Assembly (NCBI GenBank): GCA_050011955.1
Contig: JBEKIC010000003.1
Location: forward strand, 29,835-93,834
Direction of reading: 5' to 3'
Source: Xanthobacteraceae bacterium
GTDB lineage: Bacteria; Pseudomonadota; Alphaproteobacteria; Rhizobiales; Xanthobacteraceae
DNA: 64,000 nt
Shown piece after piece: positions 25,432 to 28,300 of the stretch. The notes below the pieces were generated by a model. That model had not been told where the DNA came from and searched no databases. It worked only from the letters and a program-made list of their open reading frames with translations. Positions within the stretch are counted from its first letter, which is position 1. Each line of letters begins with the position of its first letter. The translations under genes were made by a program, and so were the position numbers.

Positions 25432-25619
25432 GTCGGCCGCGGCCGCCCCGCAACCAATCTTCTTTCCCCGGCTCAACTTTTGACATTTATCAAGGTTTTG
25501 GCTGCCGAGGCCGCCATCATTCAGGATAGTGCTGGATGCTGGCCGGACCAATCCTCACACCCGTTGTATTTCTGGAGGATAAAGCGTTCAGCGCCAAGTG
25601 GCCGGCACTACCAGGGAGG

Positions 25620-25646
25620 CCCCGACTTCGGTCGGGGTCTCTTTTT
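25620..25646 (+). terminator. intrinsic terminator in an ORF-free region
   Basis: ccccgac-ttcg-gtcgggg followed by tctcttttt. Confidence 0.6.
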
Positions 25647-25662
25647 GTTTAGGCACCTCGCG

Positions 25663-25738
25663 GGCGCCCCCAACCAATCCCCTTCGCGCGGCTCAACAGA
25701 GCCCCGTCGGGGGTTCAAACCCTCCAAAATCCGTGACG
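25663..25738 (+). repeat. CA-rich ~70-bp intergenic direct repeat, copy A
   Basis: ..ccaaccaatccccttcgcgcggctcaacagagccccgtcgggggttcaaaccctccaaaatccgtgacg. Confidence 0.8.
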
Positions 25739-25982
25739 CAGTTTCAGTTTCGGCCACAGGAAAAAAAGCGGCCAGGACCGGAGCCGAATAGGTGTCTAGG
25801 AGCTATTTCGATTCGGCCAAGGCCGCCCGGTTCAGATTTAACCCCCCAACGGGATTTCCTCTGACCCGAACACGACGGTAAGCGCCTTAGCTCAAGCCGC
25901 CTTGACATGAGTCAACGGTATGCCGCGCAAAATAAAGCCGGCTGGCCCATGCGAAACCGGCACTGTGTTATACTGTAAACCT

Positions 25983-26249
25983 ATGAACACAGAGACCTTT
26001 TCTGTTCGCCTCGACCGCTCAGCAAAAGTGAGGCTTCAAAAGCTCGCCAAGAGCACTGGTCGGAGCCGTGCGTTCCTCGCCGCCGAAGCGATATCCGCCT
26101 ATCTCGACACCAACGAGTGGCAGGTCGCCGGCATCACCAAAGCGCTCTCATCGCTTGATCGCGGCAAGGGCATCGCGCACGCACGCGTCAGCGAATGGGT
26201 CGCTTCCTGGGAGACCCGAAAGGAGCGCCGGTCTCCTCGGGGCGTATGA
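25983..26249 (+). CDS. ribbon-helix-helix (CopG/ParD-like) antitoxin
   Basis: MNTETFSVRLDRSAKVRLQKLAKSTGRSRAFLAAEAISAYL is an RHH fold signature. Its stop overlaps the toxin start (ATGA). Confidence 0.7.
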   Translation: MNTETFSVRLDRSAKVRLQKLAKSTGRSRAFLAAEAISAYLDTNEWQVAGITKALSSLDRGKGIAHARVSEWVASWETRKERRSPRGV

Positions 26250-26533
26250 CGCTCCTGTGGTCTCCGGAATCCATCCACGACCTCAGCGCCCTGCGCGCCC
26301 ACATCGCCGAACATGACCCGTCCGCCGCAAAGCGTATCGCCTTGCACATCCTCTACTGCGTCGAATATCTGCTGTCGGAAAATCCGAAACTCGGCGCGCC
26401 CGGCCGCGTTCCCGGCACCCGCGAACTGGTAATTCCCCAAACGCCCTACATCGTTCCTTACCGCGTGCGCGCCTCCAAAATCGAGATCGCGCGCGTGTAC
26501 CACAGCTCCCGCCGCTGGCCCGACCGCCTTTAG
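26246..26533 (+). CDS. type II toxin, ParE/RelE family
   Basis: LGAPGRVPGTRELVIPQTPYIVPYRVRASKIEIARVYHSSRRWP is a typical ParE signature. Confidence 0.8.
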   Translation: MTLLWSPESIHDLSALRAHIAEHDPSAAKRIALHILYCVEYLLSENPKLGAPGRVPGTRELVIPQTPYIVPYRVRASKIEIARVYHSSRRWPDRL

Positions 26534-26585
26534 CTCCCCGCGCTGCCAGCCAGCCGTATCGCGAGCACCGTTGGCGGGAGAGGGA

Positions 26586-26653
26586 CAACCAATCCCCTTC
26601 CACCGCTCAACCAAGCCCCGGCAACCACCAAACCCTCCAAAATTCGTGACGTG
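26586..26653 (+). repeat. CA-rich ~70-bp direct repeat, copy B
   Basis: caaccaatccccttccaccgctcaaccaagccccggcaaccaccaaaccctccaaaattcgtgacgtg. Confidence 0.85.
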
Positions 26654-26845
26654 CCGCCACGTGGTAAAGAGAAGAGTAAGAAAGAGGGACGATCATACCT
26701 TCGCCTAGTGTGGGGACGTGCCACCATCTGTTTGGCGCGCCGCATAGGCCGCCAGGCGGTTTCGGGGGGATAAATGGCGACCGTTTGGTGAGTTGGGGGG
26801 AGCCTGATGCCAATCATCCGGGCTCCCCCTGCATTTCGCCGTGTG

Positions 26846-26915
26846 CCAACCAACGCCCGTCCGTGGCTCAACCAAGCCCCGCAGCAGGGTCAAACCCTCC
26901 AAAATCCGTGACGTG
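26846..26915 (+). repeat. CA-rich ~70-bp direct repeat, copy C
   Basis: ccaaccaacgcccgtccgtggctcaaccaagccccgcagcagggtcaaaccctccaaaatccgtgacgtg. Confidence 0.85.
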
Positions 26916-26940
26916 CGAGTAGCTGTTCCCGCTGCCTGCC

Positions 26941-27330
26941 TTAAGGCTGCTGTTGAAATATGTCAGTGCCTCGCAACGGGTTGAAGCCGTACCCAGTGAG
27001 CACCCATCGCGTCGCGATCGTTTTCCCAGCCGCCCAACCGCGCCACACGGTCTTGGATTTGCAATCCGCCGTCCAATTTTTCCAAATCACAACGAACTTG
27101 ACGTGATTGCCGATTGCACGCCCCCATAAATCGTAAGGCGTACCTTGGCATTGAAAGCCCGCAGCGTGATTGATGAAGACGCCCTTAAAAGTTCCGTCCG
27201 CCTTAAGGTCGTAGAGTTTCATCTCCGAGCCGCGTTGATTCAGCCAATAAGAGGGGACCGTTAACCCCTGAGCTGACGCACTGAACGTCGCTGCGACGAC
27301 AAGGAAAAATGCCGTGACCAAGCGATACAT
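26941..27330 (-). CDS. secreted avidin/streptavidin-family (biotin-binding) protein
   Basis: Signal peptide, then YWLNQRGSEMKL...DGTFKGVFINHAAGFQCQGTPYDLWGR...VKFVVIWKNWTADCKSKTVWRGW...TRWVLT...GTDIF. The W-N-Q-x-GS and WKN spacing is as in rhizavidin/bradavidin-type avidins. Confidence 0.7.
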   Translation of the reverse strand: MYRLVTAFFLVVAATFSASAQGLTVPSYWLNQRGSEMKLYDLKADGTFKGVFINHAAGFQCQGTPYDLWGRAIGNHVKFVVIWKNWTADCKSKTVWRGWAAGKTIATRWVLTGYGFNPLRGTDIFQQQP

Positions 27331-27463
27331 GGCGCACCCTGATGGTTGGATCGACTAAACTAGTGATACGCGTAATAGTAGTACTTCCGCCATCCATGAC
27401 GCAATAATAAAATGGAGCAAAGGTACGTTAGAAGCAGCCTCCAAAACCGATTCTTTCGGCCTA

Positions 27464-27532
27464 CACCAATCCCCTTCCCCGGCTCAACCAAGCCATGGCA
27501 CACCACCAAACCTTCCAAAATCCGTGGCGTGG
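27464..27532 (+). repeat. CA-rich ~70-bp direct repeat, copy D
   Basis: caccaatccccttccccggctcaaccaagccatggcacaccaccaaaccttccaaaatccgtggcgtgg. Confidence 0.85.
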
Positions 27533-27535
27533 ATT

Positions 27536-27751
27536 TTACCGTGGGAACAGCCCTCGTTGACGGCAATGGTCAATGATATTTTGCTTCTCGGCAATATGGG
27601 TGCCGTACTCGTCCTCGACCCAAATGTCGGTCGGATTTTGGTGCAGGACGGCACATGCAAAATCTAAAGCTTCCGAACGTCGCTCATTGCGTAAGTAATG
27701 TTCGACTGTCTTATCGTTCGCCGCCAGACGCCATTTGACGTGATATCGCAT
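27536..27751 (-). CDS. hypothetical small protein (71 aa)
   Basis: Clean ORF. Its stop lies 3 nt from repeat copy D. Confidence 0.45.
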   Translation of the reverse strand: MRYHVKWRLAANDKTVEHYLRNERRSEALDFACAVLHQNPTDIWVEDEYGTHIAEKQNIIDHCRQRGLFPR

Positions 27752-27756
27752 TAGAT

Positions 27757-27788
27757 AATCCCCAAGGCGTCCAAAATCCGTGACGTGG
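27757..27788 (+). repeat. partial copy E of the CA-rich repeat (3' part only)
   Basis: taatccccaaggcgtccaaaatccgtgacgtgg. Confidence 0.7.
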
Positions 27789-27817
27789 AATAAGAATTAT
27801 GCTTCGCGCCCGCTCGA

Positions 27818-28018
27818 TTAGGTGTTGAGCTTGGCCAACAGCTGCTTCAGCGCCGCCTTCCCGGCTTTGTTAGCGGCCGCCATGGTTCGAAAGAAGACCG
27901 GCGATTGCTTTATCGGCCTCAATTTACCGGCTCGATAAATCTGCCACCTCCATGGCTCTGGCGGATTGCCCCTCAGCTTCACCACCATTGAATAGTCGAA
28001 ACGATCAAATTCGCTCAT
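27818..28018 (-). CDS. hypothetical small protein (PWRWQIYRAGK family); the start could instead be at 28075 or 28108
   Basis: MSEFDRFDYSMVVKLRGNPPEPWRWQIYRAGKLRPIKQSPVFFRTMAAANKAGKAALKQLL resembles small conserved alphaproteobacterial proteins. Confidence 0.5.
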   Translation of the reverse strand: MSEFDRFDYSMVVKLRGNPPEPWRWQIYRAGKLRPIKQSPVFFRTMAAANKAGKAALKQLLAKLNT

Positions 28019-28106
28019 GGTCAAAATATGGGCATGGCCGGCCGGCGCTGCCACTATCAACAACGGAAACTTCATCGACTGCAAATTCAATTCAGCAGCG
28101 CCCGGC

Positions 28107-28212
28107 ATTGCGCCACAGCCACGATCCGGATAGTCTTACCGCGCGGCTGATATGACGCAGCCGTTGCATCATCTCTTCTCAGCCCCAGCGCCCGTTGCTG
28201 GGGCTTTTTTTT
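28107..28212 (+). ncRNA. candidate sRNA module 2 (paralogue of 25325-25431)
   Basis: attgcgccacagccacgatccggatagtcttac, then cggctg..cagccg, then ccccagc-gcccgtt-gctgggg followed by tttttttt. Antisense to the 5' region of the gene at 27818. Confidence 0.4.
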
Positions 28213-28231
28213 GTCTCCGCAGGCGCCCCCA

Positions 28232-28300
28232 CAACCAACGCCCGTCCGTGGCTCAACCAAGCCCCGGCAGGCCCCAAAACCTTCCAAAATCCGTGACGTG
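28232..28300 (+). repeat. CA-rich ~70-bp direct repeat, copy F
   Basis: caaccaacgcccgtccgtggctcaaccaagccccggcaggccccaaaaccttccaaaatccgtgacgtg. Confidence 0.85.

What the first reader, a model, noticed from the sequence alone, without database searches (positions are those of the whole stretch)
25451..28300. Array of small gene cassettes separated by a strand-asymmetric ~70-bp direct repeat
Five full copies (25663, 26586, 26846, 27464, 28232) and three partial copies (23236-23267, 25451-25477, 27757-27788) share the pattern CAACCAA(T/C)(C/G)CCC..GGCTCAACCAAGCCCCGG..CAAACC(C/T)TCCAAAATCCGTGACGTG. All are in the same orientation.

They separate single small genes or pairs: the RHH-ParE pair, the avidin homologue, and the 71-aa and 66-aa ORFs.

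For the three minus-strand genes, the repeat begins 3-30 nt after the stop codon. This gene-plus-repeat layout is reminiscent of integron cassettes.

The repeat is C/A-rich with very few G, so it cannot fold into an attC-like hairpin. It contains an internal direct duplication (CAACCAAtCCCC / CAACCAAgCCCC) and a GCTCAAC (RYYYAAC-like) box.

I cannot assign it to a known repeat class. It may mark serial site-specific accretion of cassettes, a protein-binding array, or a G-rich motif on the opposite strand.
Basis: seen in the sequence. Interest (0 to 1): 0.65.

Follow-up and report, generated by a model that had tools for sequence, protein, structure and literature searches.

The report
Nuclease-linked repeat array flanking small genes
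The 70-bp repeat is real and is the upstream DNA-site cluster of a neighbouring, widely conserved but uncharacterised nuclease gene; same-direction arrays of it punctuate hypervariable small-gene regions in many soil bacteria, resembling an integron in layout but using none of its known parts.

Summary
There are five full and three partial copies, all on the + strand, only at 23.2-28.3 kb, and none folds like an attC.

The repeat (U) is not an attC, REP/MITE or tRNA att scar. It is the upstream site cluster of ORF 28337-29407. That ORF encodes an IS1/IS1595-type zinc-ribbon domain fused to an intact RecB/AddA/Cas4-type PD-(D/E)XK nuclease, with more than 2,200 homologues.

Across 84 loci encoding homologues (plus the window), the core box AATCCGTGAC is about 80-fold enriched just upstream of the gene. 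It is about 10-fold enriched out to -9 kb, and only in the gene's orientation. All 43 upstream U copies point the same way as the gene, and all 23 loci with several copies are uniform. Median spacing is 915 bp.

Relatives share the U-nuclease platform but carry different small genes to its left. Three solo U copies still carry remnants of the nuclease leader or 5' coding region. One backbone site exists empty, with a solo U, and with U plus nuclease. Two 99.8%-identical contigs differ by a 97-bp indel that starts at the box centre.

My best reading is serial accretion of U-nuclease modules, with nuclease-focused recombination at U. The association is solid; the mechanism is inferred. I found no published description.

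The parts
23237..23287 (+). Degenerate distal copy of the repeat unit U. It keeps GGCTCAACCAAGCC; the box has decayed.
   Evidence: nhmmer model positions 10-59, 28 bits; the repeat finder D2.
25451..25477 (+). Left-half-only copy of U (CAACCAATC...GGCTCAAC). It sits just after a terminator-like hairpin.
   Evidence: the repeat finder D8, 81% to 25667-25697; sequence read.
25663..25740 (+). Full U copy upstream of the RHH-ParE pair.
   Evidence: 56-69 bits.
26586..26669 (+). Full U copy (26586-26653) plus a 16-nt remnant of the nuclease-gene leader (CCGCCACGTGGTAAAG, 26654-26669).
   Evidence: Alignment to the U+leader of L003, L015 and L031 extends to 26669 at 83-88%. In L005 and L028 this same U is followed directly by the nuclease gene.
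26670..26845 (.). 176-bp unique spacer without an ORF or any homologue in the loci held.
   Evidence: self-hit only.
26847..26915 (+). Full U copy, 25 nt from the stop codon of the avidin-family gene.
27465..27531 (+). Full U copy. Here box plus flank form AAAATCC-GTGGCGT-GGATTTT.
27759..27788 (+). Box-only copy (TCCAAAATCCGTGACGTG) between the 71-aa and 66-aa genes.
   Evidence: It corresponds to the box of the single U of L039.
28232..28300 (+). Proximal U copy. Synteny with relatives starts at its left edge.
28308..28319 (+). CGTGGTAAAGTG, an extended -10-like element. It lies 7 nt after the box and 17 nt before the ATG, and is conserved across the gene family.
   Evidence: Promoter function is inferred.
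28337..29407 (+). Gene for the Zn-ribbon (IS1/IS1595 type) + HTH + RecB/AddA/Cas4-type PD-(D/E)XK nuclease, 356 aa.
   Evidence: Pfam PDDEXK_1 and Zn_ribbon_IS1595; NCBIfam NF050000; AF2 pLDDT 78; Foldseek best hits AddAB/RecBCD/Cas4. E248, D284, D297, K299, Q310 and Y314 are invariant in 35 homologues. 2245 homologues were found.
25920..26533 (+). RHH antitoxin and ParE toxin pair. This is a cargo unit that recurs in other arrays.
   Evidence: tblastn/blastn hits in L005, L010, L019, L015, L023, L028, L030, L031, L035 and L039.
26941..27330 (-). Avidin-family gene (cargo).
   Evidence: Pfam Avidin 4e-8.
27536..27751 (-). 71-aa ORF (cargo, no family).
27818..28108 (-). ORF whose conserved part is about 66 aa. 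It is a cargo gene recurring in 6 other arrays.
   Evidence: tblastn 56-76% in L002, L004, L009, L010, L019 and L020.
28107..28215 (+). Repeat D6 plus an intrinsic-terminator-like hairpin directly before the proximal U. A second copy lies at 25326-25440 before the half copy of U.
   Evidence: the repeat finder D6; terminator scan; also present in L015 and L031.

Best explanation
What is shown. The repeat (U) has three parts: a CAACCAA motif, a GGCT..AGCC mini-palindrome that contains a second CAACCAA, and the box TCCAAAATCCGTGACGTG. It is the upstream site cluster of the gene at 28337-29407. That gene fuses an IS1/IS1595-type zinc-ribbon DNA-binding domain to a catalytically intact RecB-family nuclease. 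The last U abuts the gene's conserved extended -10-like element. In the whole gene family, boxes occur in 1-4 direct copies just upstream of the gene, and further co-oriented units extend for kilobases upstream with small variable genes between them. [U + nuclease gene] behaves as a discrete module found in several different genomic contexts. Some solo U copies still carry the first bases of the nuclease leader or coding region.

What is inferred. (1) The zinc-ribbon/HTH domain binds the boxes, the proximal ones for autoregulation, as IS1 InsA does at IRL. (2) The array grew by serial, same-orientation addition of [cargo + U + nuclease] units inside an ICE-like island. All but the last nuclease gene were then lost, leaving solo U copies. 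(3) Nuclease-made breaks or resection at the asymmetric box make the U copies recombination hot spots. The small genes between them are therefore gained, lost and swapped, and the asymmetry of the site preserves orientation.
For: Enrichment and orientation.
- Box density on the + strand is 1.78/kb within 400 nt upstream of the gene and 0.23/kb further upstream. Density on the opposite strand upstream and on both strands downstream is 0.021-0.025/kb (84 loci plus the window).
- All 43 upstream U hits are co-oriented with the gene, and 23 of 23 loci with several copies are uniform.
- The box-to-(C)GTGGTAnnGTG-to-ATG layout is shared by most homologues sampled, from the 100%-identity clade down to about 58%.
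- Distant loci have units of L-motif + GCTCAAC..GCC + 2-4 boxes spaced 24-36 nt (L024).

Module behaviour.
- Homology between the window and L003, L005, L021, L023, L027-L033 starts at the left edge of U and, where the context differs, ends near the stop codon.
- The p234-RepA intergenic site exists in three states: empty (window), solo U with a leader remnant (L014), and U plus nuclease (L038, L040-L043).
- Remnants: a 16-nt leader after U at 26586, leader plus 42 codons between two U copies in L019, and a 3' gene remnant in L024.

Activity at the box.
- L031 and L032 are 99.8% identical and differ by a 97-bp indel that starts at CCGTGA|CGTGG.
- Relative to L039, the window carries a 1.1-kb block flanked by box copies.
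- The L010 versus L019 break falls between the palindrome and the box.

Nuclease. The catalytic motifs are invariant and the fold is RecB/AddA/Cas4-like.
Against: - Nothing here shows binding or cleavage.
- RecB-family domains are mostly exonucleases or ssDNA nucleases, not known site-specific recombinases.
- Breakpoints between relatives are not at one fixed position. The ParE module ends about 10 nt after its stop codon, with or without a U. L009 and L004 have the 66-aa gene in other relations to U. The L035/L039 replacement is bounded by the left edge of one U and a point 29 nt before the proximal U.
- Array differences could therefore arise from ordinary homologous exchange in conserved flanks.
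- Only one near-identical pair gave an informative indel.
- Some arrays (L009, L010) show no nuclease gene in the 8 kb held.
- Units as small as 260-900 bp are awkward for whole-module accretion.
Confidence: 0.5

Rival explanations
1. Purely regulatory array. The boxes are operators for the Zn-ribbon/HTH protein or another island regulator. They control the nuclease gene and neighbouring cargo genes. The repeated units arose by duplication and play no part in DNA rearrangement.
For: The proximal boxes sit at the -35 position of a conserved promoter-like element. Direct repeats at 24-36 nt spacing are typical of operator or iteron arrays. In L014 a U lies upstream of the RepA promoter.
Against: Distal U copies have no consistent position or orientation relative to the adjacent genes. 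In the window, three lie just after stop codons of opposite-strand genes and three lie upstream of + strand genes; the called genes of L021 and L023 are likewise mixed. Solo U copies lack the -10 element. Leader and 5' gene remnants after solo U copies and the sharp right end of U indicate that whole units were copied or moved, rather than operators evolving in place.
Confidence: 0.2
2. Transfer-related polar sites of the ICE-like element. U would be an oriT-like site or a translocase-orienting site (like clt/TRS or KOPS). The nuclease would act as a restriction-fold (MOB_C-like) relaxase, or the FtsK-like protein would read the boxes.
For: The island carries RepA (RPA), two FtsK/TrwB-like genes and a Replic_Relax gene. 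The nuclease gene lies next to Replic_Relax/FtsK-like genes in at least 10 loci. An asymmetric site just upstream of its processing enzyme is the usual oriT layout. That last point, and the fact that MOB_C relaxases have a restriction-endonuclease fold, rest on my own knowledge and were not tested.
Against: Profile-profile comparison of the nuclease family with the window's Replic_Relax protein gives probability 0.2%. No homologue occurs in 72,556 plasmids. Several dispersed oriT copies have no obvious use. The boxes track the nuclease gene, not the FtsK-like genes.
Confidence: 0.12
3. Integron-like site-specific recombination by a tyrosine recombinase. The 420-aa integrase at 29659-30921 would insert and excise cassettes at U.
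For: A tyrosine-recombinase-like ORF lies 1.3 kb from the array. The box plus common flank reads AAATCC-GTGACGT-GAATTT, that is, short inverted arms around a 7-nt spacer. Box-only copies flank an inserted block.
Against: Integrase homologues are found in only about 8 of 75 loci, always beyond a tRNA-Leu gene and pointing toward the array. The Pfam hit is below threshold (21.7 against a 27.1-bit cut-off) and no solved recombinase, IntI included, matches at E<0.01. The right arm is absent from the proximal copies. There is no attC hairpin.
Confidence: 0.06
4. Selfish small repeat (MITE/REP-like) that spreads on its own into intergenic DNA of the island. Its association with the nuclease gene would be incidental.
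For: The repeat occurs in many MAGs and at several loci of one genome. Partial copies are frequent.
Against: Co-orientation is strict and location is exclusively upstream of the nuclease gene. There are no terminal inverted repeats or target duplications, and nothing convincing in the other 59 kb of the window.
Confidence: 0.05

Closest known systems
Integron (IntI + attI + attC cassette array)
   Same: A conserved platform gene lies at one end of a co-oriented array of repeats. The repeats delimit small, mostly unknown genes and toxin-antitoxin pairs. Content differs between close relatives. Median unit size is about 0.9 kb.
   Different: There is no IntI. The repeats do not fold and have no R''/L''-L'/R' symmetry. 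Cargo genes are in mixed orientation with their own upstream regions. The platform enzyme is a RecB-type nuclease with an IS1-type zinc ribbon. Breakpoints are not at one fixed nucleotide.
IS1 InsA / IRL autoregulation and multi-site transposon ends (e.g. Tn7R with TnsB sites followed by tnsA, a PD-(D/E)XK nuclease)
   Same: The N-terminal domain is homologous to the IS1/IS1595 transposase zinc-binding domain. Several direct binding-site-like boxes overlap the promoter of the adjacent gene. The first gene inside the 'end' encodes a restriction-fold nuclease.
   Different: There is no second, inverted end: boxes on the opposite strand downstream are at background level. There is no DDE partner gene, no target duplications, and the ends are repeated in tandem orientation over kilobases.
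Free-standing homing endonuclease genes, and HO/MAT-type nuclease-triggered cassette conversion
   Same: A site-specific-looking nuclease gene shows presence/absence polymorphism at the same site. Decayed copies exist. Repeated homology blocks flank exchangeable segments.
   Different: The presumed recognition sites persist next to the gene and accumulate. The nuclease is RecB-type rather than LAGLIDADG, GIY-YIG, HNH or a type II-like PD-(D/E)XK enzyme. Homing has not been shown.
Tandem accretion of integrative elements (ICE/CIME arrays, SCC composites, tycheposons)
   Same: Co-oriented direct repeats separate cargo blocks at the end of an island, next to a tRNA gene in some loci. Older modules are degraded.
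   Different: The repeats are not derived from the tRNA or an att core. Units are far smaller. The recurrent terminal gene is a nuclease rather than an integrase.

Membership tests
Integron | IntI-type tyrosine recombinase adjacent to and divergent from the array. | tested here: not met
   The only recombinase-like ORF (29659-30921) scores below the Pfam threshold and has no PDB relative at E<0.01. It lies beyond a tRNA gene, points toward the array, and is absent from most related arrays.
Integron | attC sites: imperfect palindromes (R''-L''...L'-R') that fold as single-strand hairpins. | tested here: not met
   Folding energies are not better than shuffles on the + strand. Only one - strand copy reaches z = -2.7; the other four lie between -0.8 and -1.4. 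There is no covariation in the only recurrent stem. The IntegronFinder attC model itself was not available.
Integron | Cassettes co-oriented and mostly promoterless, read from Pc. | tested here: not met
   Orientation is mixed in the window (RHH-ParE on +; avidin, 71-aa and 66-aa genes on -) and in L021, L023 and L024.
REP/BIME/MITE-type dispersed repeat | Many copies scattered through intergenic DNA in both orientations; palindromic or with terminal inverted repeats. | tested here: not met
   All window copies lie within 5 kb. 23 of 23 multi-copy loci have uniform orientation, and all U hits but one in loci that hold the nuclease gene lie upstream of it. Whole-genome counts could not be made.
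tRNA-derived att-site repeats (tandem island accretion) | Direct repeats are copies of the 3' part of the target tRNA gene. | tested here: not met
   The 30-nt 3' end of the adjacent tRNA-Leu occurs once in the window and in none of L001-L020, the loci held at the time. The only shared string is a 9-mer on the opposite strand.
Insertion sequence / transposon | Two ends (usually inverted) bound by the element's own transposase, plus a target-site duplication. | tested here: not met
   The left end is well defined, but box density on the opposite strand downstream of the gene is background, 0.022/kb. No duplication is seen at the filled versus empty p234-RepA site.
Iteron/operator cluster bound by the product of the adjacent gene | Several direct repeats at about 2-3 helical turns, next to or overlapping the promoter of the gene for the binding protein. 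| tested here: met
   There are 1-4 boxes at 24-36 nt spacing, the last one 6-8 nt from the conserved -10-like element. Actual binding is not testable with these tools.
RecB/AddA/Cas4-type PD-(D/E)XK nuclease | Motifs E, D, (D/E)xK and QxxxY on the restriction-endonuclease fold. | tested here: met
   E248, D284, D297-Y-K299 and Q310-xxx-Y314 are invariant in 35 sequences. Pfam PDDEXK_1 matches. Foldseek best hits are AddAB 4cei_A (1.7e-4), RecBCD and Cas4.
MOB_C (restriction-fold) relaxase with oriT | Homology to the Replic_Relax/TraX-type relaxase; a nic site within oriT. | tested here: inconclusive
   hhalign against the window's own Replic_Relax protein gives probability 0.2%. No structural comparison with a MOB_C protein was possible, and nicking is not testable.
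CRISPR array | 23-50-nt repeats separated by 25-70-nt non-coding spacers. | tested here: not met
   Units are about 70-150 nt and spacing is 47-5780 bp (median 915), with genes in between.

The most novel reading that the evidence does not exclude
A nuclease-driven counterpart of the integron. A Zn-ribbon/RecB-type nuclease would recognise its asymmetric box, then cut or resect there. Through directional re-joining or break-primed recombination between U units, it would capture, excise and reshuffle small gene cassettes in ICE-like islands of soil bacteria. This would be a gene-capture platform that uses neither a tyrosine/serine recombinase nor a DDE/HUH transposase.
Probability: 0.25. Interest if true: 0.9.

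Novelty: categorically new. Interest (0 to 1): 0.74.

Why it matters
The element ties a family of more than 2,200 uncharacterised 'transposase-like' nuclease genes to a defined DNA motif and a defined genomic behaviour. The family occurs in Alphaproteobacteria, and source names on two homologues point to Betaproteobacteria and Binatia. The motif is TCCAAAATCCGTGAC in co-oriented arrays. The behaviour is hypervariable small-gene arrays inside integrative elements.

If the nuclease drives the turnover, this would be a second, mechanistically unrelated route to integron-like gene capture. It would also be a new sequence-directed DNA enzyme.

If it does not, the arrays still give a simple sequence marker for an abundant, unannotated class of soil-bacterial islands and for their cargo. 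That cargo includes toxin-antitoxin pairs, an avidin homologue and many unknown small proteins.

The question is directly testable with one protein, one 20-bp site and PCR across U units.

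Tried and rejected
- attC or other structured element: folding of 5 copies on both strands and pair counting on 61 copies give no support.
- Rfam: nothing at the repeats. 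The only hits in 22.5-30 kb are a group I intron and sub-threshold terminator-like matches.
- tRNA-fragment idea: copy 1 has a T-arm-like GGGGGTTCAAACCCTCC, but this is not conserved in other copies. No tRNA 3'-end copy exists elsewhere.
- G-quadruplex on the - strand: the G runs are not conserved.
- Phage context: the Peptidase_S74 ORF first suggested a prophage. The backbone is ICE-like instead, and neither the viral contigs nor INPHARED hold the repeat or the nuclease.
- Plasmids: no homologue in PLSDB.
- Defence-system libraries: only a sub-threshold Cas4-like hit.
- Sequence search of PDB: no relative of the nuclease or of the integrase.
- MOB_C relaxase homology: not detected.
- tRNA adjacency as a general rule: found in only 6 of 75 loci.
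- A fixed crossover point in U: comparisons of shared cassettes give several different breakpoints.
- Literature: searches on the domain combination, on integron-like arrays and on the motif strings found no description.

Full report
OBSERVATION

The repeat is present as described. The repeat finder gives five copies of a 67-nt family (25674, 26588, 26849, 27465, 28234). It also gives a 31-nt 3' sub-family with a sixth member at 27757, a left-half copy at 25447-25477 and a degenerate copy near 23237. Two 18-mers taken from the repeat each match 6 times with up to 3 mismatches, against 0.09 and 0.07 expected. Every match is on the + strand and lies between 23247 and 28300. An nhmmer profile finds the same sites and nothing else convincing in the 64 kb.

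The genes between copies are an RHH/ParE pair, an avidin-family gene and two small ORFs without a family. For the three minus-strand genes the repeat end lies 25, 4 and 29-30 nt from the stop codon.

The repeat does not fold. On the + strand z-scores are -0.86 to +0.29. On the - strand they are -0.8 to -2.7. In an alignment of 61 distinct copies the only recurrent stem (GGCT/AGCC plus three outer pairs) shows no covariation: score 0.054 against a shuffle mean of 0.055.

ANATOMY OF THE UNIT (U)

The 61-copy alignment gives this consensus: CAACCAATCCCCTTC-CGCGGCTCAACCAAGCCnCG, then about 10 variable nt, then CAAACCTTCCAAAATCCGTGACGTG.

- The CAACCAA-like motif recurs three times at about 24-nt intervals.
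- The right end is sharp, falling after GACGTG.
- Many solo copies continue GAATTT, which gives the imperfect inverted repeat AAATCC-GTGACGT-GAATTT.
- Partial copies are either the left half or the 3' box alone, TCCAAAATCCGTGACGTG.

CONTEXT IN THE WINDOW

Bases 1 to about 31,000 have 50-60% G+C, against 60-68% to the right. This part carries the following genes:
- a methylase-Mrr fusion;
- a RepA (RPA) gene;
- two FtsK/TrwB-like genes;
- a Replic_Relax gene.

It is therefore an ICE- or IME-like island, not a prophage, although ORF 20132-21892 has a Peptidase_S74 domain.

To the right of the last repeat lie three features.
- ORF 28337-29407 (+).
- A tRNA gene on the - strand at 29413-29702. It is interrupted by a group I intron (Rfam 54 bits) and missed by ARAGORN. 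Reading the exons gives the anticodon loop CUUAAAA, that is tRNA-Leu(UAA).
- A tyrosine-recombinase-like ORF at 29659-30921 (-), with a sub-threshold Pfam hit.

THE NEIGHBOURING GENE

ORF 28337-29407 has an IS1/IS1595-type zinc-binding domain (NCBIfam NF050000, Pfam Zn_ribbon_IS1595) and a PDDEXK_1 domain. It has 2245 homologues at E<=1e-3. The best 120 are 65-95% identical to it, and source names on two of them point to Betaproteobacteria and Binatia.

In 35 aligned homologues the four zinc cysteines and the nuclease motifs are invariant: E248, D284, D297-x-K299 and Q310-xxx-Y314. An AlphaFold2 model has mean pLDDT 78. Its best matches among solved structures are the nuclease domains of AddAB and RecBCD, then Cas4.

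No sequence relative has a solved structure. None occurs in 72,556 plasmids or 50,697 phage records.

THE REPEAT BELONGS TO THAT GENE

A pattern built from the repeat found 20 loci in soil and peat MAGs. Nineteen are labelled Alphaproteobacteria, Hyphomicrobiales, Xanthobacteraceae or Bradyrhizobium. None was found in viral contigs. In every locus all copies share one orientation.

The last repeat is followed at the same distance by a homologue of the nuclease gene in L003, L005 and L015. In L019, two repeats bracket a leader plus only the first 42 codons of the gene.

Contexts were fetched through the protein itself, and a metagenome scan with the protein alignment added 80 loci at 56-93% identity. 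Together these generalise the link.
- The 10-mer AATCCGTGAC (up to 1 mismatch) occurs on the gene's strand at 1.78/kb within 400 nt upstream and at 0.23/kb further upstream, out to -9 kb.
- It occurs at 0.021/kb on the opposite strand upstream, and at 0.022-0.025/kb on either strand downstream.
- All 43 profile hits upstream of a nuclease gene are co-oriented with it. One further hit lies just after a gene (L029). All 23 loci with two or more copies are uniform in orientation.
- Spacing ranges from 47 to 5780 bp, with a median of 915 bp.

In most homologues sampled, from the closest clade down to about 58% identity, the last box is followed after 6-8 nt by (C)GTGGTAnnGTG, an extended -10-like element, and 25-35 nt later by the start codon. 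In the window this element is at 28308-28319.

More distant loci show fuller units. These have the CAACCAA or CAACAGAC motif, then GCTCAAC..GCC, then two to four boxes 24-36 nt apart. The units are repeated at several positions upstream (L081, L095, L047, L053, L051, L065; L024). U is therefore an iteron-like site cluster, of which the window's lineage keeps one good box.

[U + NUCLEASE GENE] IS A DISCRETE MODULE, AND SOLO U COPIES DERIVE FROM IT

Homology between the window and L003, L005, L021, L023 and L027-L033 begins at the left edge of the proximal U (28228-28238). Where the downstream context differs, it ends within the last codons of the gene, near 29384.

The module occurs in at least three contexts:
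- next to tRNA-Leu (window, L021, L027, L031);
- next to Replic_Relax/FtsK-like genes (L028, L039, L067, L070, L078, L083, L088, L095, L106);
- between the backbone genes p234 and RepA (L038, L040-L043).

The p234-RepA site exists in three states. It is empty in the window (43 nt). In L014 it holds a solo U plus about 25 nt that match the leader of the L043-type module. In L038, L040, L041, L042 and L043 it is filled with U plus nuclease.

In the window, the U at 26586 is followed by 16 nt of leader (CCGCCACGTGGTAAAG). In L005 and L028 the same ParE-U junction runs straight into the nuclease gene. L024 holds a 3' remnant of a second gene copy. These remnants show that at least some solo U copies were once followed by a nuclease gene.

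CASSETTE TURNOVER

The window and L021 are syntenic (83%) from 28232 rightwards through the nuclease gene, tRNA-Leu, the integrase (89% aa identity) and chromosomal genes. To the left of U they share nothing.

L031 and L032 (90% identity to the window over the platform) have ParE, then a U, then the 66-aa gene, then an extra roughly 1 kb. They lack the avidin and 71-aa genes and the spacer.

L039 has ParE-U-66-aa gene. Relative to it, the window carries a 1.1-kb block (26654-27769) flanked by the box of U at 26586 and the box-only copy at 27759.

L031 and L032 are 99.8% identical and differ by a single 97-bp indel. Its left end is at the centre of a box, CCGTGA|CGTGG.

Other boundaries are not at the box.
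- The ParE module ends about 10 nt after its stop codon, with or without a U.
- The 66-aa gene occurs with a full U, with a box only, with no U, or with an inverted U.
- The L035/L039 replacement runs from the left edge of one U to a point 29 nt before the proximal U.

The region is therefore a mosaic made by more than one kind of event. Ordinary homologous exchange in conserved flanks can explain part of it.

WHAT IT IS NOT

- Not an integron. There is no IntI. The integrase is sub-threshold in Pfam and has no PDB relative. It points toward the array from beyond a tRNA gene and occurs in about 8 of 75 loci. There is no attC structure, and cargo orientation is mixed.
- Not REP or MITE. Co-orientation and position are strict.
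- Not tRNA-derived att repeats.
- Not a transposon with two ends. No inverted box lies downstream.
- Not CRISPR, on unit sizes.
- No support for a MOB_C relaxase at sequence-profile level.

MECHANISM

Shown: the association, the orientation rule, the promoter-proximal position, the module boundaries, the remnants, and variation between relatives.

Inferred:
- The zinc-ribbon/HTH domain binds the boxes. The proximal cluster would autoregulate the gene, by analogy with IS1 InsA at IRL (established knowledge, not tested here).
- The array grew by repeated same-orientation addition of units that ended in U plus nuclease. Older nuclease genes were lost by deletion.
- Breaks or 5'-3' resection made by the RecB-type domain at the asymmetric box make U copies hot spots for recombination between units of 70-150 bp. 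This would explain the sharp right edge, the box-only copies, the indel that starts at a box centre, and the conservation of orientation.

I put about 0.85 on 'U is the cognate cis-element of this nuclease gene and the arrays are a hallmark of that element'. I put about 0.5 on the accretion plus nuclease-focused recombination account as a whole.

The rivals are: purely regulatory operator arrays (0.2); transfer-related polar sites or oriT (0.12); tyrosine-recombinase cassettes (0.06); and an autonomous MITE-like repeat (0.05).

NOVELTY

No paper in the library describes the motif strings, the domain combination in this role, or such arrays. The layout resembles an integron, but none of the defining parts is present. 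It is also not a member of any repeat or mobile-element class that I could test. I therefore rate it as a new kind of element, with the caveat that the mechanism is inferred.

Noticed in passing
window 29413-29702 (- strand): A tRNA-Leu(UAA) gene split in the anticodon loop by a group I intron of about 200 nt (Rfam RF00028, 54 bits). ARAGORN does not call it. The same intron-bearing gene follows the nuclease gene in L021 (Rfam). The same tRNA 3' end follows it in L027 and L031. L097 has an intron-less tRNA-Leu at the same place.
   Followed up: partly
window 29659-30921 (- strand): A 420-aa tyrosine-recombinase-like ORF whose last codons read into the 5' exon of the tRNA-Leu gene. The arrangement nuclease gene ->, <- tRNA-Leu, <- integrase is kept in L021, L031/L032, L034, L035 and L097 (64-97% aa identity). 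It is unusual for an integrase to sit on the 5' side of its presumed target tRNA.
   Followed up: partly
window 1-20000: ICE/IME-like backbone: methylase-Mrr fusion (2519-4234), RepA/RPA (5026-6555), FtsK/TrwB-like genes (7304-8809 and 11446-13542), and Replic_Relax (10445-11503). Parts of it recur next to repeat arrays in L014, L019, L028, L038, L057, L075 and L106.
   Followed up: partly
window 25326-25440 and 28107-28215 (+ strand): Two copies of a unit of about 110 nt (repeat D6) that ends in an intrinsic-terminator-like hairpin, each placed directly before a U copy. The second copy is antisense to the upstream region of the 66-aa gene. This could be a small RNA. It is also present in L015 and twice in L031, and a related CCACGGCCACGAT motif sits inside the upstream unit of L022.
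   Followed up: partly
window 23136-23209 and 25073-25146: A 74-nt repeat (D5) containing CAACCAAGG...GCTTGGTTG inverted arms. A 26-31-nt core of it is also found in L017, L019 and L021. In the window (23136) and in L019 it sits just before a U copy.
   Followed up: no
L023 10742, L029 1767, L031 5637, L033 922 (inside the nuclease gene): A box-like string, ACGATTCCGTGACGG (codons N-D-S-V-T of the conserved NDSVT motif), lies inside the coding sequence in the same orientation as the upstream boxes. It may be chance or an internal site.
   Followed up: no
L045, L049, L053, L057, L067, L070, L081, L092, L095, L106 (about 110-700 nt upstream of the nuclease gene, opposite strand): A conserved Cys-rich basic protein of about 80 aa (MPxCKNCxHxGxDHNW...CPFCFEKYQQRRKRGQC...) is encoded divergently from the nuclease gene in the 57-70% identity clades. 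It could be a partner protein. It is absent from the window's clade.
   Followed up: no
window 20132-21892; L001, L020, L024, L047, L053, L070, L103: Genes with a Peptidase_S74 (endosialidase chaperone) domain recur near the arrays: 0.7-8 kb upstream of the nuclease gene where that gene is held, and next to repeat copies in L001 and L020. The L024 gene has Gly/Tyr-rich repeats. Their role in the island is unknown.
   Followed up: no
L016 (contig JBEKAE010000083.1): One of the 20 repeat-bearing genome loci is labelled Candidatus Acidiferrales rather than Alphaproteobacteria. This is either horizontal spread of the island or a binning error.
   Followed up: no
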